DNA of 64,000 nucleotides from NCBI GenBank assembly GCA_001773775.1, contig MEXR01000032.1:7266-71265 (forward strand), given 5' to 3'. This DNA is from Candidatus Amesbacteria bacterium RIFOXYB1_FULL_44_23 (GTDB taxonomy: Bacteria; Patescibacteriota; Microgenomatia; CAZETR01; Amesbacteraceae). This document shows, piece after piece, positions 14,840-30,816 of the stretch. Below the pieces are notes generated by a model. It ran no database searches. It had not been told where the DNA came from and was given only the letters and a program-made list of their open reading frames with translations. Every line of letters starts with the position of its first letter. The stretch's first letter is position 1. Position numbers and translations under genes: made by a program.

Positions 14840-14854
14840 CAGTAACTATGATGT

Positions 14855-15672: not shown

Positions 15673-15807
15673 AATTCAGTATCTTTTAATGTGGGGGAGA
15701 TGTCAATAATTGTGTTTGCAAAACCAGCGAGCAATGCCAAAACCTACTTTTTGATGTTTGTTTGATCGCGTTTTGAATGGCAATGAATATTCAAATAATT
15801 TGTTAGC

Positions 15808-16011: not shown

Positions 16012-16079
16012 GCTTGCATTATATCCCGGGACCCTAGTGAGTAAATTGATGACGATTCAGCCGAAGAATGCGGGCTTTG

Positions 16080-16814: not shown

Positions 16815-16904
16815 GTCCTTTTATATTATTATCCGATCAAACTTTAAATTCAATGTGGTAAGCATGGACAGAGCATTCGAAGCTATGATGTTCTGATTTG
16901 ACAA

Positions 16905-17171
16905 AACGTTGAGCCGGATGGTACCATTCGTCTACAATTTGCAAAAGCGTTTAAGTTTGGTTTCCCGCCAAACAAGCTGCTTGCGATGAGCAAGACGGAA
17001 GTCAACCGTAAGAATGAGACAAAGCGTGTCGGTAACGGAGCGCTACAAGCGTAAGCTTTTAGTTCCACCGAAAGGTGGTTTTTTTGTAGCTTACGAAAGC
17101 AGGGTGGTACCACGAGAAACCTCGTCCTTGCTCTTCAAGAAATATCTTGGAGGGTGAAGGCGAGGTTTTTT
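16905..17171 (+). promoter_or_regulatory. T-box leader (tRNA-sensing riboswitch), presumably proline-specific, ending in an intrinsic terminator
   Basis: The conserved T-box sequence AGGGTGGTACCACGAG lies at 17101..17116. A terminator hairpin (acctcgtcctt 17119..17129 pairing with aaggcgaggt 17157..17166, one bulge) is followed by T6 at 17166..17171, right before the ATG at 17172. The downstream operon ends in proS. Confidence 0.6.
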
Positions 17172-18566: not shown

Positions 18567-19993
18567 AAGATTTTATTAAAAAGAATTTACCCAAAAAGAG
18601 TCAAAGCTTGTCTGAATGGTATAACCGGGTGGTAATGCTGGCTGAACTGGCTGATTATGGACCCGCCAGAGGGACTATGATTTTTCGGCCTTACGGATAT
18701 GCGATTTGGGAAACGGTGCAGAAATACATGGATGAGAAAATCAAGGCCAGCGGGGTGGAGAATGCATATTTTCCGCTTTTTATCCCCGAGTCTTTATTGG
18801 CTAAAGAGAAAGATCATATCAAGGGGTTTGCTCCTGAGTTGGCGGTAGTAACGATCGGAGGCGGAGAAGAATTGAAGGAGAGGCTGGTAGTAAGACCGAC
18901 CAGTGAAACGATAATGTACCAGGCGTATGCCAATTGGATAAAGTCATGGCGGGACTTGCCGGTTTTGGTTAACCAATGGAATAACGTAGTCCGCTGGGAA
19001 AAACGTACTTATCTGTTTCTTCGGACTCTGGAATTTCTGTGGCAGGAAGGACATTGTGCTCATGCGACCTGGGAAGAGTCGTGGGAGAGGGTGCTGTGGG
19101 GAATTAAATTGTACGAGCAAACATATCGTGAAATATTTGCATTGCCAACGGTGGTGGGAAGGAAATCGGAATCTGAGAAGTTTGCCGGGGGTGTGGCGAC
19201 TTTGACTTGTGAAGTTTTGATGCCGGAAGGCAAGGCTTTGCAGGGTTGCACATCGCATGATTTGGGGCAAAATTTTTCCAGAGCACAGAACATCAAGTTT
19301 CAGGATAAAGACAGAAGTGCCAAATATGTCTGGCAAAACAGCTGGGGTTTTACCACCAGATCTATAGGAGGAATGCTAATGGCACATGGGGATGATGCGG
19401 GAGCGGTACTGCCCCCAAGAGCTGCTCCTGTTCAAGTAGTAATCATATTGGCAAAAAGCGAAACCGACGTAACGGAGTATGCCAAAAAAGTTGAGTTGGA
19501 GTTGGTTCAACTGGGTTTAAGAGTGAAATTGGACGATCGGGAAGAGGAGTCAATGGGGTACAAAATCAATAAATGGGAACTGAGAGGGGTGCCCTTACGG
19601 ATTGAAATTGGCATTAAAGAGGTGAGGAGTCAGAATTTGACGATTGTTAGAAGGGACAACCAGACCAGACTTCTGATTTCAAATAACAACTTGGGAACAG
19701 TCAAGACGTTGCTGGACACTATTCAGTCTGATATGTTGGCTAGGCAGGAAAGATTTCTAGCTGAGAATACTTTTGAGGCTATTACGTATAATAGATTTAG
19801 CGAAATAATGAAAACAACGAAAGGTTTTATTAAGGCGTTTTGGTGCGAGCGAGCGGAATGCGAAATGACAATTAAAGAAGAGACCAAAGCTTCGACTAGA
19901 TGCCTTCCTTTGGATGCGCCGAAAGAAAACGGAGTCTGTGTTAAATGCGGTGAACCGGCAATTCACCGCTGGTTATTTGCTCAGGCCTATTGA
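18563..19993 (+). CDS. proS: Prolyl-tRNA synthetase, archaeal/eukaryotic type (no INS editing domain)
   Basis: Class II motifs (FRPYGYAIWE, RPTSETIMY, WNNVVRWE, TRSIGG) and a C-terminal zinc-binding extension. Confidence 0.9.
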   Translation: MKDFIKKNLPKKSQSLSEWYNRVVMLAELADYGPARGTMIFRPYGYAIWETVQKYMDEKIKASGVENAYFPLFIPESLLAKEKDHIKGFAPELAVVTIGGGEELKERLVVRPTSETIMYQAYANWIKSWRDLPVLVNQWNNVVRWEKRTYLFLRTLEFLWQEGHCAHATWEESWERVLWGIKLYEQTYREIFALPTVVGRKSESEKFAGGVATLTCEVLMPEGKALQGCTSHDLGQNFSRAQNIKFQDKDRSAKYVWQNSWGFTTRSIGGMLMAHGDDAGAVLPPRAAPVQVVIILAKSETDVTEYAKKVELELVQLGLRVKLDDREEESMGYKINKWELRGVPLRIEIGIKEVRSQNLTIVRRDNQTRLLISNNNLGTVKTLLDTIQSDMLARQERFLAENTFEAITYNRFSEIMKTTKGFIKAFWCERAECEMTIKEETKASTRCLPLDAPKENGVCVKCGEPAIHRWLFAQAY

Positions 19994-20007
19994 GGAGGTG
20001 ATGATGC

Positions 20008-20343
20008 ATGGCAACTATTGATGATTTTAACGCACTAGATATCAGAGTGGGAAAAATTGTGGAAGTTGAGGATTTCCCCGAGGCAAGGAAACCTTCATAT
20101 AAGCTAACAATTGATTTTGGACCAGAAATCGGGATAAAGCACTCAAGCGCTCAATTGGTTAAGCACTACACAAAAGAAGAGCTAAAAAACAAGCTGGTGT
20201 TGGGTGTGGTCAATTTTCCCCCGCGCCAAATCGGTCCTTTTATATCCGAATCACTTACTCTGGGAGTTCCGGATGAAAACCATGATTGCATTCTAATTGC
20301 ACCCGATAAAGCCACGGCAGTGGTAGGAGGAAAACTATATTAG
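20008..20343 (+). CDS. tRNA-binding domain protein (CsaA/Trbp111/EMAP-like OB fold)
   Basis: LDIRVGKIVEVEDFPEARKPSYKLTIDFGPE is the classic tRNA-binding OB-fold signature. Confidence 0.7.
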   Translation: MATIDDFNALDIRVGKIVEVEDFPEARKPSYKLTIDFGPEIGIKHSSAQLVKHYTKEELKNKLVLGVVNFPPRQIGPFISESLTLGVPDENHDCILIAPDKATAVVGGKLY

Positions 20344-20555
20344 GATTGATTCCAGAATTCGAATTTCGATCTAGCGTCGATACTATTAGACGAGTTCTGA
20401 TCAGGGTTTGGGTGGGTATGGGCGGAAATCCGTTCGAACCTGTTTAGCCATTAAGTTATTATTGGGTTATGTTCAAAATCGTGGCCTGCCCGGTTGATAA
20501 AAGAGAAGTGGGGGAGTTGGCTCGTGAGATCGGGGGCTTTTATATTTGAAAATGT

Positions 20556-20786
20556 ATGACTAAACGACAGGTTTGGCAAACGATAGCCTTGGATTTGAAG
20601 AGAGCGGCTAATTATTTGCATGCTAAGAGATACCGGCAGGCAGAATTTTATTTAGATGAGGCCAAACAACTGTACAAGACCGCTTCTTTTGACGACAAGA
20701 TGCGCTCTGTTGAGAAGTTTATAAGCTTTAGCGGTGATCCGGAAGGGATTTTGTTGGGGAGCAGTATTATTTCAGGGAGACTGTAA
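20556..20786 (+). CDS. Small hypothetical protein
   Basis: 76-aa ORF in an AT-rich stretch. Confidence 0.25.
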   Translation: MTKRQVWQTIALDLKRAANYLHAKRYRQAEFYLDEAKQLYKTASFDDKMRSVEKFISFSGDPEGILLGSSIISGRL

Positions 20787-20875
20787 AACCCGGCTGGCCT
20801 GATGGAAAGTATTCTAGCCTGTTCCTCTCAAATTTAGTATTTACTATCTTTGTAAAATATGTTAGAAGTTCTTAA

Positions 20876-21109
20876 ATGTCAGATGAACGTTTAGGTCCGG
20901 CAGAAACAAGGGTAGATATTAGAAGATATATCGAAGAACACCCCGAAGGTGTAAATATTTCTCCAACTGTTCTTGCGGCCATTGCTAGGCAGAGAAAATG
21001 GTCGGATCTTGTAGATCCTGTAAGAAGAATAACTTCAGGTCTAAAAACTTTAGGAGTTGTACGTATAGAGGGTTTAATTGCTAAACCCGTTCCTCGAAGG
21101 AAGCATTAA
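20876..21109 (+). CDS. Small hypothetical protein
   Basis: 77-aa ORF in an AT-rich stretch. Confidence 0.25.
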   Translation: MSDERLGPAETRVDIRRYIEEHPEGVNISPTVLAAIARQRKWSDLVDPVRRITSGLKTLGVVRIEGLIAKPVPRRKH

Positions 21110-21264
21110 AATTTGTTCAGAGGGCTTTGATGGAAGACGTCTGCGGTAAACCACTACCCCCTTTGATACAGAACGAAGCTGTTACGCACAAAATTTAACA
21201 TAACAGACTAGATAGAATGGCCTCACGCGGTTATAATCTCACTTAGTAAAACAACTAAATAGCC

Positions 21265-22074
21265 ATGAATATGCCTGATTTCGATGAGTCTCGAGTTATA
21301 TTTGAAAAGAGATGGCAGGAGTATGTTAATAATTTTCTTGCCTCACCATCTAATTCCAAGGTATTTAAAGCGTACGAGTCCGGGGGAATCTTATCTCCTG
21401 AAAATAGGAATGTGGTAGAGCATCAAATCATGGCAAGATTCGTAGTTGAGGTGTTGTGTGATTTGTGTGGTGTAGACGGAAATGAAAAGGAAGACGGCTT
21501 AACAGCAGCAAGTCTGCACGATTTCAATGTGCTCGAAGAAAAATTCGGCAGAAGAAACGGGAAATATAAACATTACCGGGATATAGAATCGCTGAAAGAA
21601 AAAGATCGTAATACACTCAGAGAGTTGGGGTTTTCAGAGGAAGCAATTAGTCTGACGGATGCTAACATAACGCACGAAGAGGGGGGTCCAAAATCACTAA
21701 CCGCGATGTTTTTGTTCTTGGCTGACGCCTGCATCTCCGGAACAAAAATCGTAGATATCAGAAAAAGATTTGCGGATACAAGGATGGGGTGGCGCAGCGA
21801 CAAGAAGCGAATAGATGATAAAACAGCGCAGGAGAATGCATATTATTATGATCATTTTTGGAAAGGGGCTCCGGGGCACGGAGACAGGCCGCATGATGAA
21901 GTACAACTGGAAACTGCCGCAAGAATATGTAGTGATTTGGTAGGAATATTAAGAGAGAAGCAGGCAGATACTAAAAATCCCAAATACGCACGCATATTTG
22001 GCCCAAATGGAGATTCAAACCTACTTCCAGAGTATATACGGGATAAAGTGAACGAAAAAGTTGCAAACGTCTAA
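21265..22074 (+). CDS. Hypothetical protein, possible HD-domain phosphohydrolase
   Basis: H...HD pattern (VVEHQIMARF ... AASLHDFNVLEE); weak. Confidence 0.35.
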   Translation: MNMPDFDESRVIFEKRWQEYVNNFLASPSNSKVFKAYESGGILSPENRNVVEHQIMARFVVEVLCDLCGVDGNEKEDGLTAASLHDFNVLEEKFGRRNGKYKHYRDIESLKEKDRNTLRELGFSEEAISLTDANITHEEGGPKSLTAMFLFLADACISGTKIVDIRKRFADTRMGWRSDKKRIDDKTAQENAYYYDHFWKGAPGHGDRPHDEVQLETAARICSDLVGILREKQADTKNPKYARIFGPNGDSNLLPEYIRDKVNEKVANV

Positions 22075-22149
22075 GGGGAGATTTGTAATATTCATTGGGA
22101 TTAGTTCTCGATATTTGCAGGGACTGGCGGACTGTCTGGGAACCTGGTT

Positions 22150-23220
22150 TTGGGTATAATCAGTCTTATGGATGAAATTAAAGTAGCTTCACTAGAAGAT
22201 TTGGGTTGGGGTGGGTATTTTAAAAATGAACACTCTATAGCCAGAGTGGTTGCCGAATATAGAGAAGCGTATAGGGTCAGAAGCATAAATGGAGAATTTT
22301 TAGCAAAAATTACCGGTAAACAACTGTTTTTGGCGACCAAACGGGAAGATTATCCGGCGGTAGGTGATTTCGTGGTGATAGATGAAATGTCCGGGAAAAA
22401 AGCAGTAATTCGTGAGGTGTTGCCCAGAAAGACCTGGCTTAAGAAGAAGTACAGCGATAAAGAAGAAAACCAGCTGATAGCAACTAACATAGACGCGGCA
22501 TTTATAGTGGGATCTCCGGATAAGGATTACAGTTTGAATCGTTTTGAGAGATATTTAGTTATTGCTAAGGACGGGGGAATTAAGCCGGTCTTAATTATTA
22601 ACAAAACCGACTTACTTTCTGAGGCGGAATTGCGCGCCAAAATATCGGAGATTAAGGAAAGATTTGGGGAGGTTGATATTCTTCTGACTAGTACAGTGAC
22701 TGAGCTGGGATTAGGAGAGCTGGAAAAGTATATTCTAAGGGGTAAGACATATTGCTTTTTGGGTTCTTCCGGAGTAGGCAAATCGACACTTATAAATAAA
22801 TTACTGGGTAAAAATGAAATTAAAACGATGGAAATTAGTGAAACATCCGGCAGGGGAAAACACACCACCTCAACCAGGGAGATGTATTTTTTAAAAAACG
22901 GGGGAATAGTCATTGATAACCCAGGAACCAGGGAGGTGGGTACGGGAGATTCAGTTAGGGGTATGGAAAATGTGTTTGATGAAATAAGATTACTGTCTCA
23001 AAACTGCAGATTTTCTGATTGCACGCATACAAACGAACCTAATTGTGCGATTATCACAGCCGTGGAGTCTGGAAGTTTGGATAAAGATAAATATGCGAAT
23101 TTTCTAAAGTTACGAAAAGAATCGGAATTTTATAAAATGAGTGAGCTGGATAGAAGAGCTAAAGATCGGAAGTTTGGAAAATTTGTTAAGAAGGCAAAAA
23201 ATGAGCTTGAGATGTATTGA
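22150..23220 (+). CDS. rsgA: Ribosome small-subunit-dependent GTPase A (RsgA/YjeQ)
   Basis: Circularly permuted GTPase motifs (NKTDL, GSSGVGKSTLIN, DTPG-like DNPGTRE) and the RsgA zinc finger CRFSDCTHTNEPNC. Confidence 0.85.
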   Translation: MGIISLMDEIKVASLEDLGWGGYFKNEHSIARVVAEYREAYRVRSINGEFLAKITGKQLFLATKREDYPAVGDFVVIDEMSGKKAVIREVLPRKTWLKKKYSDKEENQLIATNIDAAFIVGSPDKDYSLNRFERYLVIAKDGGIKPVLIINKTDLLSEAELRAKISEIKERFGEVDILLTSTVTELGLGELEKYILRGKTYCFLGSSGVGKSTLINKLLGKNEIKTMEISETSGRGKHTTSTREMYFLKNGGIVIDNPGTREVGTGDSVRGMENVFDEIRLLSQNCRFSDCTHTNEPNCAIITAVESGSLDKDKYANFLKLRKESEFYKMSELDRRAKDRKFGKFVKKAKNELEMY

Positions 23221-23300
23221 ATTTTTTACTTAAAGCTATTTTGCAGGTTTGGACGCCATAGCCCTGAGCGGAGTCGAAGGGGAAGATACTCGAATTTTGT

Positions 23301-23936
23301 ATGGGCAACTTGCCTCTTTTGGAACTAAGCAATAAAATCCGGCAAATGGCTCGTGAACGCGGGTTTGAATGTCTGTTTAGCAGTAATCCAAAGGTTTATT
23401 TTATCGAGCAAGTTATTGAACAGCTCGATGTACTCGAGGCTCTCTTTTTGTGGGAACAGGGATTGGAACATATCTCTGGCTTAGTGACTGGATGTTTCGA
23501 TATACTACACCCTGATCAAGTTGAGTTTTTACAAGCAGGAAAAAGAAAGGTTCAGACGTTAATTGTGGGGGTTGATAGGGATGAAACGGTGAGACTAAAA
23601 GGTCCAGGAAGACCAATTTTTAATCTTAGACAAAGGTGCGAAATGCTGGCGGCTCTTGATTGTGTAGACTTAGTTTTTCCAATTCCCTTTGCTTTGGGAA
23701 GGTATGAGGAGTCACCCGAAAACGCTACCTTGTTCGAAGCCTTAACTGATAGATTATTCAACTCTACTTTGCCGAGGCAAGGTATACATTGTCTAATAAC
23801 AAATGAAGCTGCAGATCCGTTTTGGCGGGAAAAGAAAGAGCGGGCTGAAAAACTGGGAGTTGGCTATATTGGTTTGAATATGGAGAGATCTACTAGCTCG
23901 AGTCAGGTGGCAACTAAAATTCAAACAGGGGGTTAG
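23301..23936 (+). CDS. Cytidylyltransferase-like nucleotidyltransferase (HxGH family; RfaE domain II / TagD-like)
   Basis: GCFDILHPDQVEFLQ is an H-x-G-H-type motif in the right position, followed by VGVDRDETV... Confidence 0.5.
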   Translation: MGNLPLLELSNKIRQMARERGFECLFSSNPKVYFIEQVIEQLDVLEALFLWEQGLEHISGLVTGCFDILHPDQVEFLQAGKRKVQTLIVGVDRDETVRLKGPGRPIFNLRQRCEMLAALDCVDLVFPIPFALGRYEESPENATLFEALTDRLFNSTLPRQGIHCLITNEAADPFWREKKERAEKLGVGYIGLNMERSTSSSQVATKIQTGG

Positions 23937-23951
23937 GCATTCTTTATGGTT

Positions 23952-23978
23952 GCAGCCCTGGATGGAAGACATCCGAAC
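23952..23978 (+). repeat. 27-nt direct repeat copy 1 (GCAGCCCTGGATGGAAGACATCCGAAC)
   Basis: 25/27 identical to 24782..24808; contains a small hairpin ggatg-gaaga-catcc. Confidence 0.6.
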
Positions 23979-24008
23979 CTATTACTCTCAAAACCGATAA
24001 TAGAGTAT

Positions 24009-24698
24009 CTATTTTAATATTTCTCTTACAGTAGCCTGGACAAGGATTTCCATTGTATCGATAATTTCAGAGTTCTGTATATGGGGGGTGATTAATTGTA
24101 AATCTGTGCACGCAAGCAGAATTGTTTTTGGACCCTGGTCTAGTAGTCCTTTGGTTATTTTTAACAATTTTTCCCTGTCTTCACCATCCTGTCTACTGTG
24201 AACCAGGTGGTTGATGATTTCGCCCATTTGGTTCTGATCCTCCTCAACTGGACTTTTTACTTTTATACCATTTGAGGTAAGAACCTCTTCATATAACCTT
24301 TTTCTGATGGTGGAGGAGGTGGCTAAAAGACCAACTTCGGTGACTTTGTTACTATTGAGGCGACTTAATGTTTCATCCACTATGCTCAAAACAGGGACTT
24401 TCACTGATTCTCGGATTTGGTTAATAAAAATATGAACTGAGTTACATGGGATGACGATAAAATCTGCTCCGCCCTTCTCCAGTCTTTTAGCGGCATCTAA
24501 CAGATAAGGCAGATATTTTTCTTCTCCCTGAGAATTCTTGATGAATTCCTCTTCTATCTGATAGGGGAGGGGGACGTTCCAAATCAGCATTGGCGGACGG
24601 TTTATCCGATCCTTTTCAAAACAGGAGAAAATTACCTCCAGATAAAATTTGGAAGTTGTTTCCGGACCCAGTCCGCCAATTATGCCTGCAGTTTTCAT
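24009..24698 (-). CDS. Asp/Glu/hydantoin racemase family protein (aspartate racemase-like)
   Basis: MKTAGIIGGLGPETT ... two catalytic Cys regions (IVIPCNSVH, LLACTDL). Confidence 0.75.
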   Translation of the reverse strand: MKTAGIIGGLGPETTSKFYLEVIFSCFEKDRINRPPMLIWNVPLPYQIEEEFIKNSQGEEKYLPYLLDAAKRLEKGGADFIVIPCNSVHIFINQIRESVKVPVLSIVDETLSRLNSNKVTEVGLLATSSTIRKRLYEEVLTSNGIKVKSPVEEDQNQMGEIINHLVHSRQDGEDREKLLKITKGLLDQGPKTILLACTDLQLITPHIQNSEIIDTMEILVQATVREILK

Positions 24699-24781
24699 TC
24701 TCGGACTTAATTATATAGCAGGTTCGATTCCAATTAGCCGTTGATATAGTTTGATATGTTTTTTAGCTTCAAATTGAGTTA

Positions 24782-24808
24782 GCTGCCCTGGATGGAAGAC
24801 ATTCGAAC
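24782..24808 (+). repeat. 27-nt direct repeat copy 2 (GCTGCCCTGGATGGAAGACATTCGAAC)
   Basis: Flanks the racemase gene together with copy 1; sits at the left edge of the AT-rich island. Confidence 0.6.
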
Positions 24809-24864
24809 TTTTTACGTTCAGTTATCTTGTTAGTTGGAATAAACAGACTTATACTTTTTCCGTA

Positions 24865-25230
24865 ATGATAATAAATCGTAATAATTCGCGTTTTTGGGAG
24901 GCTTTGGAAGATATATTGAATAATTCTTCAGTAGTAATAGACCGGCCAGGGGGCAGTGCTCATCCAAGATTTCCGAAGTTTATTTATCCTCTGGATTATG
25001 GTTTCCTCGAAGGGACTTCTTCTATGGATGGTGGGGGAATTGACGTGTGGAAGGGGACCGGTACTAACGGTTTTGATGCGATACTTTGTGTTGTTGACAC
25101 AATCAAAAAAGATTCAGAAATAAAAATATTACTTAACTGCACCCCAGAAGAAAAAAGAAAGGTGCTGGAGTGTCAGAATACAAAAAAGATGAAGGCTATG
25201 ATGATAAATCGCGACGGGACACTTTCGTGA
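24865..25230 (+). CDS. Minimal inorganic-pyrophosphatase-like protein (family I core motif only)
   Basis: DRPGGSAHPRFPKFIYPLDYGFLEGTSSMDGGGIDVW parallels the family I PPase core DR......YP.NYGYI..T...DGDP.DV. At 121 aa it lacks the usual N-terminal strands. Confidence 0.35.
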   Translation: MIINRNNSRFWEALEDILNNSSVVIDRPGGSAHPRFPKFIYPLDYGFLEGTSSMDGGGIDVWKGTGTNGFDAILCVVDTIKKDSEIKILLNCTPEEKRKVLECQNTKKMKAMMINRDGTLS

Positions 25231-25404
25231 AAAGCTAGACGTCGTCTGGTGAAGCTAAACGAAAGATTGTTACAAAGCTCTGTTGTGGCAGGACTAGTGG
25301 ACTATGTTGGAACCTGGTTTAGGGAAAATAGGTTTGGTTTTGCTGTGTAAATGGTGGGGGGCGGGTAAACCCGTTAGCTTTATTGTCGTAAAATTACTGA
25401 GGTA

Positions 25405-25986
25405 TTGGAAAGACAGCCTTTTTGGGTTAATATCGCCCCAGGAACGAGTATGAGTGACGATATTAAATGGGTGGTAGATAATGCAGTGAAGTTATCTATT
25501 TTGGCGATAGCCTTATCAGTGGCATATTACTTTGTATTTTTTTTGCCAAATAAACAGAACCAGGAATTGGAATTAAAAAGGCAACAGTATCAGGACCAGA
25601 TAGTTGCCCAGCAAAAGGAAGACGAACGGGAACAACAAAAGATTTTAGATGTACAGAAACAGGCTGCAGAGAATAGGTCATTATTGGATAAGTGTTTGGA
25701 AAACGCTGAAGATTCGTATCACCTGAATTGGAGAAATAGTTGTAGGACAAGAGGATTAATGCCAAGTGGGTGTGAGGAGGAGTCAATTAACCTGGAGTTT
25801 TCTGATTATCAGAAACAACATAATTTGCCAACTTCTACCATTGAGGGATGGGATGATTATTGGAAAGTTTACAGTGCAAAAAAGGATAAATGTACCTGCA
25901 GCTTGCCTACATATAATGCAGACGACATAACTGAGACTGAAAAAAACTCAAAGGACGAATGCTTTAAAAGATATCCACAGAATTAG
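25405..25986 (+). CDS. Membrane-anchored hypothetical protein (coiled-coil, C-terminal Cys-rich)
   Basis: TM segment (LSILAIALSVAYYFVFFL), a Q/E-rich coiled coil, and C-terminal Cys residues. AT-rich context; alternative start about 25450. Confidence 0.4.
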   Translation: MERQPFWVNIAPGTSMSDDIKWVVDNAVKLSILAIALSVAYYFVFFLPNKQNQELELKRQQYQDQIVAQQKEDEREQQKILDVQKQAAENRSLLDKCLENAEDSYHLNWRNSCRTRGLMPSGCEEESINLEFSDYQKQHNLPTSTIEGWDDYWKVYSAKKDKCTCSLPTYNADDITETEKNSKDECFKRYPQN

Positions 25987-26085
25987 GGGTATATTACGGT
26001 TGGTGTTGTCGCTGGAACCTGGTTTAGCCTGAATTGGTGGAGAGAAAGGGGGATTAGCCTTTGCTGGGTGGTTTAGGAGGAGTGG

Positions 26086-26436
26086 ATGTTTGTACTGCGC
26101 AGGACTAAGATTACCCAGGACATGGACGAGGAAAATAATGCTCTTTCTTATTTATTTTGGGGTGGGGTAATAGTCTTCATTATTTGGGCATTCATTTTTA
26201 ACAATAAGCCCGATACTGAATACATTAGGGAAGAATTCGACAATGGTAAGGCTATCGAAATGGAGGTTGACGACTCGATCACTAGAGACAATTGGGAGTG
26301 TACAGGTGATTGCTCTGGTCATGATGCTGGATATGAATGGGCAGAAGAGAAGGGGATAACTGATCCAAGTGACTGTGGTGGCAAATCAGAGTCTTTTATA
26401 GAGGGGTGTGAGGCTTATGCGAACGAAAATTATTAA
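26086..26436 (+). CDS. Small membrane protein with Cys-rich C-terminus, hypothetical
   Basis: TM segment (LFWGGVIVFIIWAFIF) and CTGDCSGHDAG...CGGKSESFIEGC. Confidence 0.35.
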   Translation: MFVLRRTKITQDMDEENNALSYLFWGGVIVFIIWAFIFNNKPDTEYIREEFDNGKAIEMEVDDSITRDNWECTGDCSGHDAGYEWAEEKGITDPSDCGGKSESFIEGCEAYANENY

Positions 26437-26537
26437 GGTAGGTGGGCATTGATGGGGTGGGGGACTACGTGGGAACCTTTTTTGTTTGTATTGATAGAAG
26501 GTATGGGGAAGTAAACCTTGTCAGGAATTTTTGTGCC

Positions 26538-27032
26538 CTAGGGTCCTTTTTTTAGGTTAGATCGGAAATTTATCCAACTTATAAAAATTTTTACTCTGTC
26601 AATGAGGCTCAGATTTGAAAGTAAGGTGTCTGCTCTGTCTCCAATGTGTTCAATGTAGTCCTTAAAATAATTTATTTCAGATTGCTTTGGTTCAAAGATT
26701 GATTCCCCGCCGGTGAAGCTGGGAATTTTTTTCCAATCCTGTACAAATGCTCTAATCATGGTTGAGAGTGATGGGTTGTACATTTTGACATTTCTAGCGA
26801 TGTGTATCAGGCGTTGTGATATGTTTTCAGAGAATTTGAGCGATGGTAAACATTGTTCTTCGAATTCGGCCAACCGATCTTGAATTTTATTTCTAAGCTT
26901 GCGTTTTTCGGTCTCATCTTCACCCAAGGATTTAAGCTTATTAGACAAGTTGTAGTTGTAAAATATTCCGATCAAACTGATTACTGCGGGTACTGAGGCT
27001 AAGACCAAAGCAAATTTTTCTGAAAGTGTCAT
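26538..27032 (-). CDS. Membrane-anchored hypothetical protein (second gene of the LexA-divergent cassette)
   Basis: 164-aa ORF with an N-terminal TM helix (FALVLASVPAVISLIGIFY). It lies 9 nt downstream of the 308-aa ORF on the same strand. Confidence 0.5.
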   Translation of the reverse strand: MTLSEKFALVLASVPAVISLIGIFYNYNLSNKLKSLGEDETEKRKLRNKIQDRLAEFEEQCLPSLKFSENISQRLIHIARNVKMYNPSLSTMIRAFVQDWKKIPSFTGGESIFEPKQSEINYFKDYIEHIGDRADTLLSNLSLIDRVKIFISWINFRSNLKKGP

Positions 27033-27041
27033 ATATTACGT

Positions 27042-27968
27042 TTATGCAAAAAGTTTTGTTATTTCCGAATCCCATGATTCAGTATGGATAACTCTTTTGA
27101 TCGATAAATTGCCTTGTATTATCTGTGCTTTGGTGAGTTTGGAAAGGGTTTCCCAGTTGTTCCCAAATACGTAAGTGGCGTTGCCATACTTGATGCACTC
27201 GAGTAGGTAAAAGCCTCTTTGCCCAAAGCCAAAAACTACATACCCCTGAAAACCGCCAAAACCAATGGCGTGTAGGGTGGGTTTGTAACTTCGAATTTTG
27301 TCTACCCTATGTGTAGCCCATGGCTGGTTACCTTTGGGTAGCTGATTTATGACCGTTTTTAATCTATCGGACACCCTTTCCCAGGGGTATTCACCTGGTG
27401 GGAGTATTTCCCAGTTGAGTCTTACTTCTTTAGGTGAAAAGTAACCTTCGAGATTATTGGAGACAATGTCGAATTCACCAAAAATTTCAAGCATCAAGTT
27501 TGCGAGGTGGAGAACTTCCTTTTCGTTTTCTGGTTTGCTTTGAACTACCCGGCTGGAAAACATGAGTTCGCCTGTTGGAGTTTGAAGTATTTCGAGTTCT
27601 TCTGAGGGTGGTAGCACTTTTTCTCTGGGATATCTTTGGTAAGGAACATCAACAAATTTGCTCATTGGAACTGTGTTGTAACGGCCGTCCCATTGTTTCC
27701 AATGCCACTTGACTGTGCGGTAAGCAGTTTCCATTGGTAGATCAGTTCTTTTTATTTCCTTGCCCAGGGCATTGAATCTGGTAGTTGGGCCAAATGTGGG
27801 TGGGGGGAGTATTTTGTGACCTACTGAAATGGGTAAGTTGAAACCAATTCTAATGGCTATCTGGTCAGTGGTGGAGTTGGTGGTGGCAATGAGTCGAAAT
27901 TGTTCACCTGGTTTTAAGAATCCAAAATAAGACTTGTAATCGTGGATTGACGTCTTTTTAATCTTCAT
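27042..27968 (-). CDS. Hypothetical 308-aa protein (first gene of the LexA-divergent cassette); no recognisable family
   Basis: Long clean ORF, AT-rich, with Gly/aromatic-rich C-terminal motifs (GFGGFQGYVVFGFGQRGFYLLE). Transcribed divergently from the LexA-like repressor across an 83-nt region containing palindromes. Confidence 0.55.
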   Translation of the reverse strand: MKIKKTSIHDYKSYFGFLKPGEQFRLIATTNSTTDQIAIRIGFNLPISVGHKILPPPTFGPTTRFNALGKEIKRTDLPMETAYRTVKWHWKQWDGRYNTVPMSKFVDVPYQRYPREKVLPPSEELEILQTPTGELMFSSRVVQSKPENEKEVLHLANLMLEIFGEFDIVSNNLEGYFSPKEVRLNWEILPPGEYPWERVSDRLKTVINQLPKGNQPWATHRVDKIRSYKPTLHAIGFGGFQGYVVFGFGQRGFYLLECIKYGNATYVFGNNWETLSKLTKAQIIQGNLSIKRVIHTESWDSEITKLFA

Positions 27969-27979
27969 GAGGCTGATTG

Positions 27980-27996
27980 TACCACAATTTCTGGTA
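27980..27996. promoter_or_regulatory. Candidate LexA operator palindrome TACCA-N7-TGGTA (second palindrome CAAGA-N4-TCTTG at 28001..28014)
   Basis: Perfect inverted repeats in the divergent intergenic region between the cassette and the lexA-like gene. Confidence 0.3.
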
Positions 27997-28051
27997 AATG
28001 CAAGATTGTTCTTGTATAGTGTGTTATGATTTAATACGATTGAAAGGCATT

Positions 28052-28669
28052 ATGGTAGGATTACATCCAAGGCAAATAAAAATTCTGGAGCTGCTGAAAG
28101 GTGGTGATGGCCAGGGTTTAAGCGTGAGGGAGATTCAGAACTTACTTGGGATTTCCTCACCAAGTGTTGTTCAGCACCACATTGTTCAATTGGAGCGGAA
28201 GGGTTATCTTCGCAGAAATCCTAATAACCCTCAGGATTTTCAGGTTTTGGCTGATAGCCCTGATAGGGAAGTGACCTATTTGAACGTTTATGGGTTGGCT
28301 CAGTGTGGTCCAGGAGGGAGAATTCTTGATGGCAATCCCATTGAGAGAGTTCCCATCAGCTCAAAATTGCTTGGATTCTCCTCCTCGGAAGCATTTATGG
28401 TTAAGGCGAAAGGAGATTCGATGGTGCCACTTATTGCTGAGAACGACTATGTGGTTGCTAGGGTAACGAATGACAAACCACCTGGGGGTGAAATTGTTGT
28501 TGCTGTCAATGATGGTAATGCGACAATAAAAAAAATAAATTATTCAGGAGGTGAGGTTGTCTTGTCGTCTATTAACAGGGATTATTCGCCAATGATTGTA
28601 TCGCCAGATTTCAGGGTGGAGGGTGTAGTTAGAGGTGTATATAAATATGCCAATCCCACGGTAAAATAA
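28052..28669 (+). CDS. lexA: LexA-type transcriptional repressor (wHTH + S24 peptidase)
   Basis: N-terminal LexA DNA-binding domain (RQIKILELL...GLSVREIQNLLGISSPSVVQHHIVQLERKGYLRR). S24 catalytic Ser in GDSM and Lys in ...NATIKK. Start trimmed to MVGLHP; the upstream in-frame extension from 27998 would overlap the promoter palindromes. Confidence 0.8.
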   Translation: MVGLHPRQIKILELLKGGDGQGLSVREIQNLLGISSPSVVQHHIVQLERKGYLRRNPNNPQDFQVLADSPDREVTYLNVYGLAQCGPGGRILDGNPIERVPISSKLLGFSSSEAFMVKAKGDSMVPLIAENDYVVARVTNDKPPGGEIVVAVNDGNATIKKINYSGGEVVLSSINRDYSPMIVSPDFRVEGVVRGVYKYANPTVK

Positions 28670-28769
28670 TTTATGGCGAAAATATCATGGTCGGAGGCAT
28701 TGGCTGATTATTTGGGGGGATGAGACGTCGAGTTACCAATCCTTGGTGGGGAAATTTGGGGTATCGAAG

Positions 28770-28840
28770 CAGGGACGGGAGGAATCGAACCTCCACTAGA
28801 GCTTTTGGAGAGCCCAGGTCTACCATTAACCTACGTCCCT
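28770..28840 (-). tRNA. tRNA-Trp (anticodon CCA)
   Basis: Hand-folded cloverleaf: acceptor AGGGACG/CGTCCCT, D-arm, anticodon stem GGGCT/AGCTC with loop CUCCAAA, T-arm GGAGG-TTCGATT-CCTCC. CCA not encoded. Confidence 0.75.
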
Positions 28841-28881
28841 AGACAGTTTAATTTTACAGGAGTTGCTGAAGAAAGAGAAGC

Positions 28882-29055
28882 TTACTTGAGTTTGGCGTTT
28901 TCCTTGTGGGTGGTGTGCTTTCGGCACTTCTTACAGAATTTATCCAACTGGATTTTTTCGGGGACGTTAACCTTGTTACGTTCTCCGATATAGTTTTGGG
29001 TTTTGCAGACGCTGCAAACAAAACCAAAGATCTGACGGGCACCTTTTTTGGCCAT
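28882..29055 (-). CDS. rpmG: 50S ribosomal protein L33
   Basis: Hand translation gives MAKKGARQIFGFVCSVCKTQNYIGERNKVNVPEKIQLDKFCKKCRKHTTHKENAKLK (57 aa), the canonical L33 zinc ribbon. It was missed by the ORF track (<60 aa); the track ORFs 28854..29042(-) and 28805..28993(+) are wrong-frame artefacts. Confidence 0.85.
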   Translation of the reverse strand: MAKKGARQIFGFVCSVCKTQNYIGERNKVNVPEKIQLDKFCKKCRKHTTHKENAKLK

Positions 29056-29090: not shown

Positions 29091-29501
29091 CTATTGGGTG
29101 ACTGGCGGAACTGGGGTAGCAGCCGCTGGTTGGGTTGGCATGTTCCAGGCCGGAGAAACTGGAGCCGGAGCACTTGAGAGCGGTGCTTGTGGCATTGTTG
29201 CCGGAGCCATGGGAACTACGGGTTCTGGGGCTACTGGAGCTATGACAACCGGTTCCGGAGCCATTACCGGTGGTGGGGTCACGACAGGGGTCGGACTGAA
29301 AACCGGAGTGGGGGGAACGCTGACTGTGGCTGCTGCCTGGTCAATACTGGCCTGAGCCTGACTGACGTCTGGGGCGACTGAGGCTGCTGTGGTTGCGGTA
29401 GAGTTTTCTACGCCACAACGTTCGCATACCCAAACAGTGCGGCCATCGTTGGTGGTAACAGCTTGACAGTTGACGCAGTTAATTGGTTGTTGAGGATCCA
29501 A
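29091..29501 (-). CDS. Zinc-ribbon (CxxC...CxxC) protein with long Pro/Ala/Val-rich tail, hypothetical
   Basis: N-terminal CVNCQAVTTNDGRTVWVCERCG followed by a PTPVVTPPPVMAPEPVV low-complexity region; immediately upstream of rpmG on the same strand. Confidence 0.45.
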   Translation of the reverse strand: MDPQQPINCVNCQAVTTNDGRTVWVCERCGVENSTATTAASVAPDVSQAQASIDQAAATVSVPPTPVFSPTPVVTPPPVMAPEPVVIAPVAPEPVVPMAPATMPQAPLSSAPAPVSPAWNMPTQPAAATPVPPVTQ

Positions 29502-29604: not shown

Positions 29605-30816
29605 GTGGACTACGCAAGTAAGTTGGGGGGAATGCAAAGCTTTTCATTGTCGGGAATGTCTTCCCCGGTTGAGATTGTGGACCAGGTGATCGGTCAGGCG
29701 GTAAAAGATTCGGCTTCGGATATTTTGTTTGAGCCTCAGGAGAAAGATGTGGCGGTCAGACTGAGAGTAGATGGAGTGCTGCAGGTGGTGGGAGTAATGC
29801 CGCACGGAGCTTACGATCAGGTGCTGTCAAGAATCAAGGTGTTGGGAAATATGGACGTAACTGAAAGCAGGAAACCTCAGGAATCAAAGATAAGATTTGA
29901 AGTGGACGGGCATCCGTATGTGCTAAGGGCTGCTATTGTATCTACCAATTTCGGACAAATGGTGGCTTTAAGAGTTCTTGACGCCCCTAAATTCACTGAA
30001 TTTACGGATTTGGGAATGTCGGCTGACCTGTCAGATAAAATCAAAAAGAACATTTCCGGGAGATACGGATTGTTTTTGGTCTGCGGACCGACGGGATCCG
30101 GAAAAACTACAACGGTGCATGCCTGTTTGAAGCATTTAAATGATGGGGAAGTAAATATCATGACCTTGGAAGACCCGATTGAATACATCATGGGCGGAAT
30201 TAATCAGATGCAGATTGGGGAAGAGGTGGGATTGGACTTTGTTTCCGGACTGAAACTTATTTTGCGACTGAATCCGGACATTGTTTTTGTGGGAGAAATC
30301 CGGGATGCGGAAACGGCCCGGATTGCGGTTCAGGCATCACTGACCGGGCATTTGGTTATTTCAACAATTCACGCCCGAAACAGTGTGGGAGCGTTGTACA
30401 GATTGATAGATTTGGGAGTGGACCGATACATGATCAATTACGCCCTGCGGGCAATTGTGTCACAAAGGCTGATGCGGCGGGTGTGTGACCACTGTAAGGA
30501 AGAGTATGCACCGGAACAAACTGAGGTGAAGGCATATGTCACCGAAAAAGGAGCACCGCCTTCAAGGCTTGTGCATGGAAGGGGATGTGATTTGTGTAAT
30601 CAGACCAAGTATCGGGGCAGGGTGGGAATTTACGAGCTGTTAGAAATGGACGATGGTGTAAGGCAAATGGTGACTTCAGTGGCATCAGAATCAGAATTCA
30701 GGGCTGGTTTAAACAGTAAAGGTTGGGTGGGAATGAACCACGAGGGGATTAGACTGGTGGATGAAGGAGTAACTTCACTGCGGGAGTTTGTGAGAACAAT
30801 GTACGATGCGAGGTAA
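29605..30816 (+). CDS. Type II/IV secretion ATPase (PilB/GspE family)
   Basis: Walker A LVCGPTGSGKTTT, Asp box TLEDPIE, Walker B VGEIRD, His box, C-terminal tetracysteine (CDHC...CDLC). At 403 aa it is short. Confidence 0.8.
   Translation: MDYASKLGGMQSFSLSGMSSPVEIVDQVIGQAVKDSASDILFEPQEKDVAVRLRVDGVLQVVGVMPHGAYDQVLSRIKVLGNMDVTESRKPQESKIRFEVDGHPYVLRAAIVSTNFGQMVALRVLDAPKFTEFTDLGMSADLSDKIKKNISGRYGLFLVCGPTGSGKTTTVHACLKHLNDGEVNIMTLEDPIEYIMGGINQMQIGEEVGLDFVSGLKLILRLNPDIVFVGEIRDAETARIAVQASLTGHLVISTIHARNSVGALYRLIDLGVDRYMINYALRAIVSQRLMRRVCDHCKEEYAPEQTEVKAYVTEKGAPPSRLVHGRGCDLCNQTKYRGRVGIYELLEMDDGVRQMVTSVASESEFRAGLNSKGWVGMNHEGIRLVDEGVTSLREFVRTMYDAR

What the first reader, a model, noticed from the sequence alone, without database searches (positions are those of the whole stretch)
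26538..28051. Uncharacterised two-gene cassette (308-aa soluble + 164-aa membrane-anchored) divergent from LexA, with palindromic operator candidates
The 308-aa protein has no motif I can place; it has a Gly/aromatic-rich C-terminus (GFGGFQGYVVFGFGQRGFYLLE). The 164-aa protein follows 9 nt downstream and has a single N-terminal TM helix. The pair is divergently transcribed from a genuine LexA across 83 nt containing two perfect palindromes: TACCA-N7-TGGTA at 27980..27996 and CAAGA-N4-TCTTG at 28001..28014. A soluble effector plus small membrane partner under SOS control is the layout of SOS-induced toxins and abortive-infection modules. Here neither partner resembles a known family, so this may be a new LexA-controlled stress or defence module.
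Basis: partly seen in the sequence, partly recalled or inferred. Interest (0 to 1): 0.72.

Follow-up and report, generated by a model that had tools for sequence, protein, structure and literature searches.

The report
LexA-linked gene of unnamed widespread family
Next to a LexA repressor gene sits a 308-residue protein from a large, unnamed, horizontally mobile family that very often lies beside DNA-damage-sensing repressors and may share the DNA-binding core of the Zorya defence protein ZorC. The small membrane protein after it is only a local add-on.

Summary

The 164-aa membrane protein is not a conserved partner. It has only 10 homologs, and none of the five loci examined has a 308-family gene or a LexA gene nearby.

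The 308-aa protein is the real finding.
- It belongs to a family of at least 2,058 clusters at 50% identity, about 300-315 aa, with no Pfam, NCBIfam, PHROGs or PDB match; PADLOC gives only weak ZorC hits.
- The family is spread across bacteria and some archaea, on plasmids, a conjugative element and genomic islands, and in 100 of 5,426 E. coli genomes.
- In 35 of 79 species-level loci it lies within 2 kb of a LexA/S24 gene (11) or an M78 peptidase gene (25).
- Two copies that are 75% identical carry different regulator types.
- The four closest relatives all have a divergent LexA and a conserved promoter.
- The gene coupled downstream varies: TIR, Schlafen, DUF2188 or membrane proteins.

Three weak signals point to ZorC, whose EH motif is needed for dsDNA binding. 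They align E257, GNAxY, H295 and W299 with ZorC residues.

Best reading: a damage-inducible, probably DNA-binding accessory or defence gene. Its function is untested.

The parts
27042..27968 (-). Gene for the 308-aa protein, a member of a large unnamed family. Basic (pI 9.4), no transmembrane segment. The C-terminal half (about residues 205-304) is possibly an EH-signature-like domain.
   Evidence: ORF. Family: 570 or more homologs and 2,058 representatives at 50% identity. No curated family or solved relative. ZorC signals. pI.
26538..27032 (-). Gene for the 164-aa protein with one N-terminal transmembrane helix (residues 7-25). It starts 9 nt after the 308-aa gene and is probably co-transcribed. 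It is a lineage-specific add-on, not a conserved partner.
   Evidence: Only 10 homologs. In the five loci examined they lie elsewhere, without a 308-family or LexA gene. Absent from 80 related loci. The same 308+164 arrangement is seen only on contigs that carry the identical 308-aa protein.
28052..28669 (+). LexA-family repressor gene (205 aa): LexA winged-helix DNA-binding domain plus S24 self-cleaving peptidase domain. Transcribed divergently from the 308-aa gene.
   Evidence: 51% identical to the LexA at the same genomic place in L025. The GDSM serine and IKK lysine are present. The cleavage site reads Cys-Gly instead of Ala-Gly (read from the sequence).
27969..28051 (.). 83-nt divergent control region between the two start codons.
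   Evidence: Aligned with five related loci (alignment A4).
27976..28003 (-). Inferred promoter of the 308-aa operon: -35 TTGCAT (28003..27998), 16-nt spacer, TG-extended -10 TGGTACAAT (-10 hexamer 27981..27976). Only 7 nt separate the -10 from the ATG, so the mRNA may be leaderless.
   Evidence: The homologous position in L062, L005, L094, L095 and L097 reads TTGAC(T)-N16-TACAAT, and TACAAT is invariant in all six. The window's own hexamers fall below the simple scanner's threshold, so the promoter is inferred by homology.
27980..27996 (.). Palindrome 1, TACCA-N7-TGGTA. It lies between the -35 and -10 and overlaps the -10. Best candidate for the LexA operator.
   Evidence: Relatives have TTCTA-N7-TAGTA at the same place. 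The window differs by a symmetric change, C in the left arm and G in the right. This is a single event and the element is not enriched in the window.
28001..28014 (.). Palindrome 2, CAAGA-N4-TCTTG. It consists of the conserved CAAGAAC box (28007..28014, minus strand) plus the TTG of the -35 element. On the + strand it overlaps a weak candidate lexA promoter (TTGTAT 28012..28017, 17 nt, TACGAT 28035..28040).
   Evidence: CAAGAAC is invariant in all six aligned loci. The right arm is the -35 TTG in the relatives. The lexA promoter assignment is my reading of the sequence and is weak.
28769..28840 (-). tRNA-Trp gene that borders lexA, with rpmG beyond it at 28882..29055 (-). This is context only. 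L025 has the same order: rpmG, tRNA-Trp, LexA, 308-family gene.

Best explanation
This is a DNA-damage-inducible accessory operon placed back to back with a LexA-family repressor gene.

Proposed steps:
1. LexA binds in the 83-nt spacer, most likely at the dyad between the -35 and -10 of the 308-aa gene's promoter, and keeps the operon off.
2. Single-stranded DNA produced by damage or by an invading element activates RecA. LexA then cleaves itself and the 308-aa and 164-aa genes are expressed.
3. The 308-aa protein is the conserved working part. Its C-terminal half probably is a divergent EH-signature domain like the dsDNA-binding core of Zorya ZorC, so it most likely binds DNA.
4. It acts on invading or damaged DNA, alone or together with whatever gene is coupled downstream. 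Here that gene encodes a lineage-specific membrane-anchored protein.

Shown: the gene order; the family's size and spread; its repeated adjacency to LexA/S24 or HTH+M78 regulators; the swap of regulator type between close copies; the conserved promoter; the variable downstream gene.

Inferred: LexA binding at these sites; induction by damage; DNA binding by the 308-aa protein; a defence or conflict role.
For: Regulator association:
- 35 of 79 species-level loci (71 of them with at least 1.5 kb of upstream sequence) have an S24 (11) or M78 (25) peptidase gene within -2000..+1500 nt.
- Only 2 of the loci with such a gene in the ±6 kb flanks have it solely outside that window.
- 28 of the 35 are upstream and divergent (my count from the listing).
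- Pfam confirms the domains. NCBIfam shows that all ten LexA-like neighbours tested match lexA at full length and that 4 pass the equivalog cut-off.
- For comparison, fewer than 10% of CBASS operons carry CapH+CapP or CapW (PMC13228613).

Regulator swap:
- The L023 copy (HTH_3 + M78) and the L037 copy (LexA) are 75% identical, and both are followed by DUF2188.
- S24-linked and M78-linked members are interspersed on a neighbour-joining tree.

The window's own clade:
- P0001, P0003 (L062), P0004 and P0005 all have a divergent LexA.
- They share the promoter TCAAGAAC-N4/5-TTGAC-...-TAGTACAAT despite 50-58% protein identity.

Mobile or defence context:
- Shedu, type ISP restriction, AAA_15/OLD, integrases, transposases and a TrwC relaxase are among the immediate neighbours.
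- The family occurs on plasmids next to helicase/ATPase pairs, on a conjugative element and in a restriction/Abi island with M78 + HTH + family gene + DUF2188.
- In E. coli it sits next to a tRNA gene at an island or prophage end in the two genomes examined, and 100 of 5,426 genomes carry it.
- Lau et al. 2022 list a 'DUF2188 + hypothetical protein' operon with CapH/CapP among known or likely defence systems.

EH-domain link:
- 7 of 22 family members weakly hit the PADLOC ZorC model.
- hhalign gives P 0.006, above all 40 permuted controls. E257, G262-N263-A264-x-Y266, H295 and W299 fall in register with ZorC E400, G405-N406-A407-x-Y409, H443 and W458.
- The four 308-family positions E257, N263-Y266, H295 and W299 are at least 93% conserved in 79 sequences.
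- ZorC's EH motif is required for dsDNA binding and for defence (PMC11946911).
- The family's median pI is 9.07.
Against: - No experiment exists on any family member.
- The operator is inferred. The palindromes are not enriched in the window, and the symmetric base change is a single event.
- The regulator link is not universal. About 2 of 24 viral-contig loci and 0 of 8 plasmid and E. coli loci have an S24 or M78 gene nearby. Enterobacterial copies have no CTG-N10-CAG LexA box upstream.
- The EH link is weak. Pfam EH_Signature did not hit 28 members at the thresholds used (E ≤ 1 for 22, E ≤ 0.1 for 6). hhalign probability is only 6%. A1 against a single ZorC sequence gave nothing. Foldseek found nothing in PDB. 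The ZorC alignment used has low diversity.
- lexA lies at the same chromosomal place (rpmG, tRNA-Trp) in two genomes. That also fits an ordinary chromosomal SOS gene rather than a mobile defence module.
- The LexA cleavage site reads Cys-Gly, so self-cleavage is assumed, not shown.
Confidence: 0.55

Rival explanations
1. The 308-aa protein is an ordinary, vertically inherited member of the SOS regulon of this lineage, working in DNA repair or damage tolerance on the cell's own chromosome, not in conflict with foreign DNA.
For: - lexA and the 308-family gene lie at the same housekeeping place (rpmG, tRNA-Trp) in the window and in L025, with 51% LexA identity.
- Among the 13 Patescibacteria-labelled loci, the 11 with upstream sequence all have a LexA or an XRE-type HTH gene beside the family gene (my tally).
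- The link to damage-sensing regulators is much stronger than reported for defence operons.
- A DNA-binding EH-like domain would also suit repair.
- Plasmid-borne, LexA-linked damage-tolerance cassettes such as umuDC and imuA-imuB-dnaE2 show that repair genes can be sporadic too (my own knowledge).
Against: - The distribution is patchy: 100 of 5,426 E. coli genomes, in the two examined next to a tRNA gene at an island or prophage end; plasmids; a conjugative element; restriction and Abi neighbours.
- Flanks are extremely variable.
- TIR and Schlafen genes are coupled downstream in close relatives.
- No known repair gene recurs beside it.
Confidence: 0.2
2. One reading: the 308-aa and 164-aa proteins form a functional two-part module: a soluble toxin or effector with a small membrane partner, under SOS control.
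For: - A 9-nt gap and the same strand make co-transcription likely.
- Contigs carrying the identical 308-aa protein show the same pair.
- Other family loci also have membrane proteins coupled downstream: L025 (214 aa), L046 and L050.
Against: - The 164-aa family has 10 members, and none of the five loci examined has a 308-family gene or LexA.
- No homolog is present in 80 family loci.
- It is not similar to the 214-aa protein of L025.
- About half of the family loci have no coupled downstream gene at all.
Confidence: 0.1
3. The family serves mobile elements themselves, for example as an anti-defence, establishment or regulatory protein carried on plasmids, conjugative elements and prophage ends. 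The neighbouring repressors are then the elements' own switches.
For: - In L098 the gene is divergent from the nikA-relaxase-coupling protein genes, with RadC and DUF2958 genes nearby.
- Integrases, transposases and ArdC are among the neighbours.
- 24 loci occur in viral contigs, many of them near contig ends.
- ImmR/ImmA-type HTH + M78 pairs are classic switches of mobile elements (my own knowledge; also discussed).
Against: - The family is rare in phage collections: 1 of 50,697 phage records and 24 of 2.9 million viral contigs.
- Where the regulators are present, no phage or conjugation genes follow the family gene.
- In the window, lexA lies among housekeeping genes and no tRNA-derived att repeat was found.
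Confidence: 0.1
4. The adjacency to lexA in this window has no regulatory meaning, and the palindromes are chance. The 308-aa gene is constitutive.
For: - The palindromes are at chance frequency in the window.
- The window's promoter hexamers are weak.
- Many family loci have no regulator nearby.
Against: - The divergent LexA is conserved in all four closest relatives, with a conserved promoter/operator block.
- Regulators cluster within 2 kb in 36 of the 38 regulator-locus cases.
- The regulator type was swapped between 75%-identical copies.
Confidence: 0.05

Closest known systems
ZorC, the EH-signature protein of type I Zorya (E. coli; PDB 8R68; Hu et al. 2024, PMC11946911)
   Same: - A possible shared core. 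The motif E...GNAxY...H...W is in register (308-aa E257, N263-Y266, H295, W299 against ZorC E400, N406-Y409, H443, W458).
- A preceding helix carries an invariant Arg.
- Both families are basic, and both occur in defence islands.
- In ZorC this motif is needed for sequence-independent dsDNA binding.
   Different: - ZorC is 560 aa, has extra N-terminal helices and a C-terminal globular domain, and works with the ZorAB membrane motor and the ZorD nuclease.
- The 308-aa family is about 300 aa and stands alone. None of the neighbours scanned against Pfam matched a ZorA, ZorB or ZorD family. Its N-terminal half (residues 1-200) has no counterpart.
- Pfam EH_Signature did not detect it.
- Homology is suggestive only.
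Operons controlled by CapH/CapP (HTH + M78 peptidase), in particular the 'DUF2188 + hypothetical protein system' of Extensimonas perlucida in Lau et al. 2022 (bioRxiv 10.1101/2022.04.27.489752)
   Same: - The architecture M78 peptidase + HTH, divergent from a hypothetical protein followed by DUF2188, is seen in L023, L063, L079 and L102.
- The regulator logic is the same: a repressor that is cleaved after DNA damage.
- The paper lists these operons as known or likely defence systems.
   Different: - The window uses LexA (self-cleaving S24) instead of HTH + M78 and has no DUF2188 gene.
- I could not obtain the Extensimonas sequences, so identity of its 'hypothetical protein' with this family is unverified.
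- The paper did not study or name the protein.
SOS genes transcribed divergently from lexA that encode membrane-anchored cell-division inhibitors (B. subtilis YneA, M. tuberculosis ChiZ, C. glutamicum DivS; my own knowledge)
   Same: The 164-aa protein has a single N-terminal transmembrane helix and lies in an operon divergent from lexA.
   Different: - No LysM or other recognisable domain.
- It is the second gene, not the first.
- In the five loci examined, its homologs in other genomes are not next to lexA.
LexA-controlled toxin or bacteriocin operons (colicin activity gene plus lysis gene; TisB, SymE; my own knowledge)
   Different: No sequence or fold similarity to any such protein. There is no immunity gene, and the pair is not conserved.

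Membership tests
LexA (SOS repressor), for the ORF at 28052..28669 | N-terminal LexA-type winged-helix DNA-binding domain | tested here: met
   PF01726 LexA_DNA_bind, E 2.4e-11, residues 1-60.
LexA (SOS repressor), for the ORF at 28052..28669 | C-terminal S24 peptidase domain with a Ser/Lys dyad | tested here: met
   PF00717, E 7e-20. The GDSM serine and the IKK lysine can be read in the alignment.
LexA (SOS repressor), for the ORF at 28052..28669 | Score at or above the curated lexA equivalog cut-off (TIGR00498, 110.95 bits) | tested here: not met
   104.5 bits with a full-length match, positions 2-200 of 203. Relatives in the same clade score 79-96 bits. Four LexA neighbours of other family members pass.
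LexA (SOS repressor), for the ORF at 28052..28669 | Ala-Gly self-cleavage site | tested here: not met
   The sequence reads GLAQ-CG-PGG, that is Cys-Gly at the aligned place, also in L025. Whether Cys-Gly is cleaved is unknown.
LexA (SOS repressor), for the ORF at 28052..28669 | Binds an operator in its own promoter region; RecA-dependent cleavage | not testable with these tools
   Candidate sites only. Needs EMSA or footprinting and a cleavage assay.
EH-signature domain proteins (ZorC-like), for the 308-aa protein | Conserved Glu and His of the EH motif with surrounding network residues (ZorC E400, H443, W458, R335) | tested here: inconclusive
   E257, H295 and W299 align with E400, H443 and W458. 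GNAxY is shared. R221 lies on the preceding helix, one turn from the R335 position. The 308-family residues are at least 93% conserved.
EH-signature domain proteins (ZorC-like), for the 308-aa protein | Significant match to an EH-signature or ZorC profile | tested here: inconclusive
   The PADLOC ZorC model hits 7 of 22 members, best E 0.0018. hhalign P 0.006, probability 6%, above 40 of 40 permuted controls. Pfam PF15611 gave no hit in 28 members at the thresholds used (E ≤ 1 for 22, E ≤ 0.1 for 6). A ZorC-EH HMM ranks a family member first among 5,699 ORFs, but at E 0.31.
EH-signature domain proteins (ZorC-like), for the 308-aa protein | Fold similarity to the ZorC core | tested here: inconclusive
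Type I Zorya system | zorA, zorB (MotAB-like) and zorD (Snf2/nuclease) genes next to zorC | tested here: not met
   The neighbouring ORFs in the window show no such genes. No ZorA-, ZorB- or ZorD-type family appears among the Pfam families reported for the immediate neighbours in 79 loci. Compare the real locus.
CapH/CapP-regulated 'DUF2188 + hypothetical protein' operon (Lau et al. 2022) | Divergent HTH (CapH-like) and M78 peptidase (CapP-like) genes upstream | tested here: not met
   The window has LexA instead. The feature is met in relatives L022, L023, L029, L063 and L102.
CapH/CapP-regulated 'DUF2188 + hypothetical protein' operon (Lau et al. 2022) | DUF2188 gene in the operon | tested here: not met
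   No DUF2188 gene next to the window's gene. One is present in 10 of 79 loci and in L102 and L116.
CapH/CapP-regulated 'DUF2188 + hypothetical protein' operon (Lau et al. 2022) | The 'hypothetical protein' of that operon belongs to the 308-aa family | not tested
   The sequences WP_144728457.1 and WP_144728459.1 could not be fetched. Only the architecture matches.
Known anti-phage defence proteins (PADLOC-DB 2.0) | Significant match to any model | tested here: not met
   The window's protein has 0 hits at E ≤ 1. Among 22 members there are only the weak ZorC hits.
SOS cell-division inhibitors of the YneA/ChiZ type, for the 164-aa protein | Single transmembrane helix plus a LysM or peptidoglycan-binding domain; conserved next to lexA | tested here: not met
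   The transmembrane helix is present. There is no LysM or other domain. In the loci examined its homologs are not next to lexA.

The most novel reading that the evidence does not exclude
The 308-aa family is a new, very widespread class of stand-alone EH-domain DNA-binding proteins. They would form a DNA-damage-triggered immune (or DNA-protection) system of their own, independent of the Zorya motor. A proteolytic repressor (LexA, or HTH + M78) keeps them silent, and they recruit or license interchangeable partners: TIR, Schlafen, DUF2188 or membrane proteins.
Probability: 0.3. Interest if true: 0.8.

Novelty: new variant of a known kind. Interest (0 to 1): 0.62.

Why it matters
A family of at least 2,000 sequence clusters with no name, no Pfam model and no solved relative is tied far more tightly to DNA-damage-sensing repressors than known defence operons are. 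About 44% of species-level loci have such a regulator, against under 10% reported for CBASS.

If the ZorC link holds, it would give the EH-signature domain a second, much simpler context in which to study what the domain does on DNA. At present it is known only from Zorya, and its function there is not understood beyond DNA binding.

The family is directly testable. Natural copies exist in E. coli, Enterobacter, Pantoea, Lactococcus and Deinococcus, and compact regulator-plus-gene cassettes (L023, L037, L102) could be cloned as they are.

For uncultured Patescibacteria, the conserved promoter block next to lexA also offers a concrete candidate LexA operator.

Tried and rejected
Searches that led nowhere:
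- Single-sequence searches of both proteins against Pfam, NCBIfam, PADLOC and PHROGs gave nothing usable. A lone Imm11 hit (E 0.015) was not repeated in 21 other members.
- PDB by sequence and by profile gave nothing.
- Foldseek against PDB and BFVD gave nothing. AFDB50 was not available.
- The A1 profile against a single ZorC sequence gave nothing.
- Rfam found only the tRNA.
- Full-text searches for four accession numbers of family members found no paper.
- The Patescibacteria SOS paper (Sanchez-Osuna et al. 2017) and Burroughs & Aravind 2020 are not in the library. The published Patescibacteria LexA motif therefore could not be compared.

Ideas considered and dropped:
- Restriction enzyme with a controller protein. 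A DNA methyltransferase recurs in only 4 loci.
- Prophage early gene next to a CI-like repressor. The family is rare in phage records and viral contigs, and regulators are scarce there.
- Genomic island integrated at tRNA-Trp. No repeat of the tRNA end was found in 12000..29000, and base composition is unremarkable.
- SOS control in trans in enterobacteria. There is no CTG-N10-CAG box upstream.
- The 164-aa protein and the 214-aa membrane protein of L025 being the same family. They are not similar.
- More operator copies in the window. None beyond chance, and no GAAC-N4-GTTC site.
Full report
**1. What is in the sequence**

- a 308-aa ORF at 27042..27968 (-);
- a 164-aa ORF at 26538..27032 (-), starting 9 nt after the first;
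- a LexA-like ORF on the + strand.

Read from the ATG at 28052, the LexA-like protein (205 aa) matches Peptidase_S24 (7e-20), LexA_DNA_bind (2.4e-11) and the lexA equivalog TIGR00498 over its full length. Its score is 104.5 bits, just under the cut-off of 110.95. The catalytic serine and lysine are present. The cleavage site reads Cys-Gly rather than Ala-Gly, as it also does in a relative.

The 164-aa protein has one hydrophobic helix at residues 7-25. The 308-aa protein has none and is basic.

Both palindromes are present. Their frequency in the window is what chance gives.

The exact 308-aa protein occurs on 24 or more metagenome contigs. The two loci shown have the same gene arrangement.

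**2. The 164-aa gene is a local add-on**

- It has only 10 homologs, at 60-69% identity apart from one 100%-identical entry (P0121).
- In the five loci examined (L081-L085) these lie in other contexts, sometimes as two copies, with no 308-family gene and no LexA.
- No homolog is present in any of 80 loci that encode a relative of the 308-aa protein.

The 'two-gene cassette' is therefore not a conserved unit.

**3. The 308-aa protein belongs to a large unnamed family**

- A word-indexed search found 570 relatives.
- An exhaustive profile search found 2,058 representatives at 50% identity with E ≤ 1e-3, of which 1,471 have E ≤ 1e-10.
- Nearly all of the 150 best-scoring representatives listed are 300-315 aa and match end to end, with no fusions.
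- Members come from many bacterial phyla and from Methanobacteria.
- None carries a name other than 'hypothetical protein'.
- No Pfam, NCBIfam or PHROGs model matches, including when 28 members were scanned against Pfam. PADLOC gave only the weak ZorC hits described in section 6.
- PDB searches by sequence and by profile found nothing.

**4. Where the family lives**

Flanking genes differ almost completely from locus to locus.
- Immediate neighbours include Shedu, a type ISP restriction enzyme, AAA_15/OLD, DUF4365, Fic, RelA/SpoT, ArdC, integrases, transposases and a TrwC relaxase.
- The family is on 19 plasmids. In Lactococcus SK11 plasmid 5 it lies directly after a large DEAD/DEAH-box helicase gene. 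In Sinorhizobium it follows an AAA ATPase plus helicase pair. In Deinococcus it lies next to such a pair.
- It occurs on a conjugative element and in an island with Vsr, an HpaII restriction-modification pair and Abi_C.
- It is present in 100 of 5,426 complete E. coli genomes. In the two examined it sits next to a tRNA gene at the end of an island or prophage.
- It is rare in phages: 1 of 50,697 records and 24 of 2.9 million viral contigs.

**5. The recurrent partner is a damage-sensing repressor**

I built local HMMs from Pfam-verified seeds and scanned the 79 species-level loci.
- 35 loci have an S24/LexA-like gene (11) or an M78 (ImmA/IrrE/CapP-like) peptidase gene (25) within -2000..+1500 nt. 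71 of the 79 loci have at least 1.5 kb of upstream sequence.
- Only 2 further loci have such a gene elsewhere in the ±6 kb flanks.
- By my count from the listing, 28 of the 35 are upstream and divergent.

Pfam confirms three regulator layouts:
- HTH_3 (~112 aa) plus M78 (~170 aa) pairs;
- HTH-M78 fusions;
- a three-gene set of an M78 peptidase with two unnamed proteins.

All ten LexA-like neighbours tested match lexA at full length, and four pass the equivalog cut-off.

The L023 copy (HTH + M78) and the L037 copy (LexA) are 75% identical, and both are followed by DUF2188. On a neighbour-joining tree the two regulator types are interspersed. So the regulator type has been exchanged while the cargo stayed the same. 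The common denominator is a repressor that is destroyed after DNA damage.

Fewer than 10% of CBASS operons carry comparable regulators (PMC13228613).

The association is not universal. It is low in viral contigs (about 2 of 24) and absent in the 8 plasmid and E. coli loci examined. Enterobacterial copies have no LexA box upstream.

Lau et al. 2022 show a 'DUF2188 + hypothetical protein system' with CapH/CapP among known or likely defence systems. L023 and L102 have exactly that architecture. I could not check the sequences from the paper.

**6. The window's own clade**

The four closest relatives are 50-58% identical. All have a divergent LexA directly upstream.

Their spacers share a block: TCAAGAAC, 4-5 nt, TTGAC(T), GTTCTAG, TTTTTG, TAGTACAAT. 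I read it as a -35 element, a 16-nt spacer and a -10 element.

The window has CAAGAAC, TTGCAT, TACCAG, AAATTG, TGGTACAAT at the same positions.
The change is symmetric in the two arms. It is the best operator candidate.
- Palindrome 2 is the conserved CAAGAAC box plus the TTG of the -35 element.

In L025 the order rpmG, tRNA-Trp, LexA, family gene is the same as in the window. So this lexA may well be the chromosomal one. No att-like repeat of the tRNA end was found.

The gene coupled downstream (-4 to +9 nt) differs in every relative:
- the 164-aa membrane protein here;
- a CAP12/Pycsar-type TIR protein in L094;
- a Schlafen/AlbA_2 protein in L095;
- small ORFs and a DUF4238 protein in L097;
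- an unnamed 235-aa protein in L062;
- DUF2188 in 10 loci;
- other membrane proteins in L025, L046 and L050.

**7. A lead on what the protein is**

Three independent weak signals point to ZorC, the EH-signature protein of type I Zorya.
- 7 of 22 members hit the PADLOC ZorC model (best E 0.0018).
- A local profile-profile alignment compared family residues 200-308 (208 sequences) with ZorC residues 315-475 (18 sequences, taken from the E24377A locus, its homologs and metagenome loci). It scores 21.1 (P 0.006). Forty column-permuted controls gave mean 12.8, sd 2.3 and maximum 20.0.

The alignment puts E257, G262-N263-A264-x-Y266, H295 and W299 on ZorC E400, G405-N406-A407-x-Y409, H443 and W458. 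The ZorC residues are invariant in the 18-sequence alignment apart from Y409 (F in three). E257, N263, A264, Y266, H295 and W299 are at least 93% conserved in the 308-aa family, and G262 is invariant in the 22-sequence alignment.

In ZorC, Glu400 and His443 form a network with Asp332, Arg335, Trp339 and Trp458. The motif is needed for sequence-independent dsDNA binding and for defence (PMC11946911).

Against the link:
- Pfam EH_Signature did not detect the family.
- hhalign probability is only 6%.
- A ZorC-EH HMM ranks a family member first among 5,699 ORFs, but only at E 0.31.

I rate the EH link at about one in two. The family's median pI of 9.07 fits nucleic-acid binding.

**8. Verdict**

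There is a new module linked to LexA, but its unit is 'damage-sensing repressor plus 308-aa family gene', not '308 plus 164'.

The most likely working: LexA represses the operon at the dyad in the promoter. DNA damage or invading DNA leads to LexA self-cleavage. The 308-aa protein, probably a DNA-binding protein with a ZorC-like EH core, then acts on DNA, alone or with a variable partner.

A conflict or defence role is favoured by the patchy, island-borne distribution and by the TIR and Schlafen neighbours. A DNA-repair or tolerance role is the main rival. Nothing about function has been tested experimentally.

Noticed in passing
window 22121-22154, 25291-25324, 26454-26487 (and 26013-26038): A ~34-nt element (GGACTGGCGGACTGTCTGGGAACCTGGTTTTGGG and variants, 65-82% identical) recurs just after gene ends. 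It may be a repeated terminator-like or intergenic element.
   Followed up: no
window 20792-20830, 23952-23990, 24782-24820: A second repeated 39-nt element (GCAGCCCTGGATGGAAGACATCCGAACCTATTACTCTCA and variants, 62-85% identical) lies in intergenic positions.
   Followed up: no
window 28052-28669 (LexA residues ~80-90); L025 5237-5860: The LexA of the window and that of L025 read GLAQ-CG-PGG where LexA normally has its Ala-Gly self-cleavage site. This is a Cys-Gly site conserved in two genomes whose LexA proteins are 51% identical.
   Followed up: partly
window 28800-29700; ORF 29091..29501 (-); ORF 29605..30816 (+): A GC-rich patch (0.53-0.54 against about 0.42 around it) coincides with a 136-aa ORF that is rich in Pro, Ala and Thr and starts with two CxxC pairs. 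A PilB/GspE-like ATPase gene sits between tRNA genes.
   Followed up: no
L032, L033, L066, L067, L069, L071, L073, L074 (about 1.2 kb upstream of the family gene); also L017, L053: Mostly in beta-proteobacterial loci, the family gene is preceded by a divergent three-gene set: an M78 peptidase (~270 aa), a ~130-aa protein and a ~197-aa protein without Pfam hits. This may be a third type of peptidase-controlled switch.
   Followed up: partly
L027 4777-5550 (-), L034 4768-5466 (-): In two Saccharibacteria loci the upstream divergent genes encode an HTH_3 + SocA/Panacea antitoxin-domain protein and a small protein. This is a possible PanA-type toxin-antitoxin pair beside the family gene.
   Followed up: no
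L098 1-3927: The family gene is divergent from the nikA-like, relaxase and coupling-protein genes of a conjugative element. It would then sit where a transfer origin and leading region are expected. RadC and DUF2958 genes lie nearby.
   Followed up: no
L089 7500-8000; L047 5500-5890; L059 5600-5890: E. coli, Enterobacter and Pantoea copies share a conserved non-coding stretch of ~400 nt upstream, with ATGTAGTG...CACTACAT inverted repeats and a hairpin. It has no Rfam match and no LexA box.
   Followed up: partly
L081 3512-4036 and 5001-5525; L082 3-527 and 669-1193: The 164-aa protein's family occurs as two 174-aa copies close together in related genomes, so it looks like a small expanding lineage-specific membrane-protein family.
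   Followed up: no
L093 3756-3971; L018 27-293; L022 1209-1481; L001 and L003 upstream ORFs: Small proteins are often translationally coupled upstream of the family gene: a KTSC-domain protein in Deinococcus, ~88-90-aa proteins in two Patescibacteria, and a 100-aa family in L001, L003 and L015.
   Followed up: no
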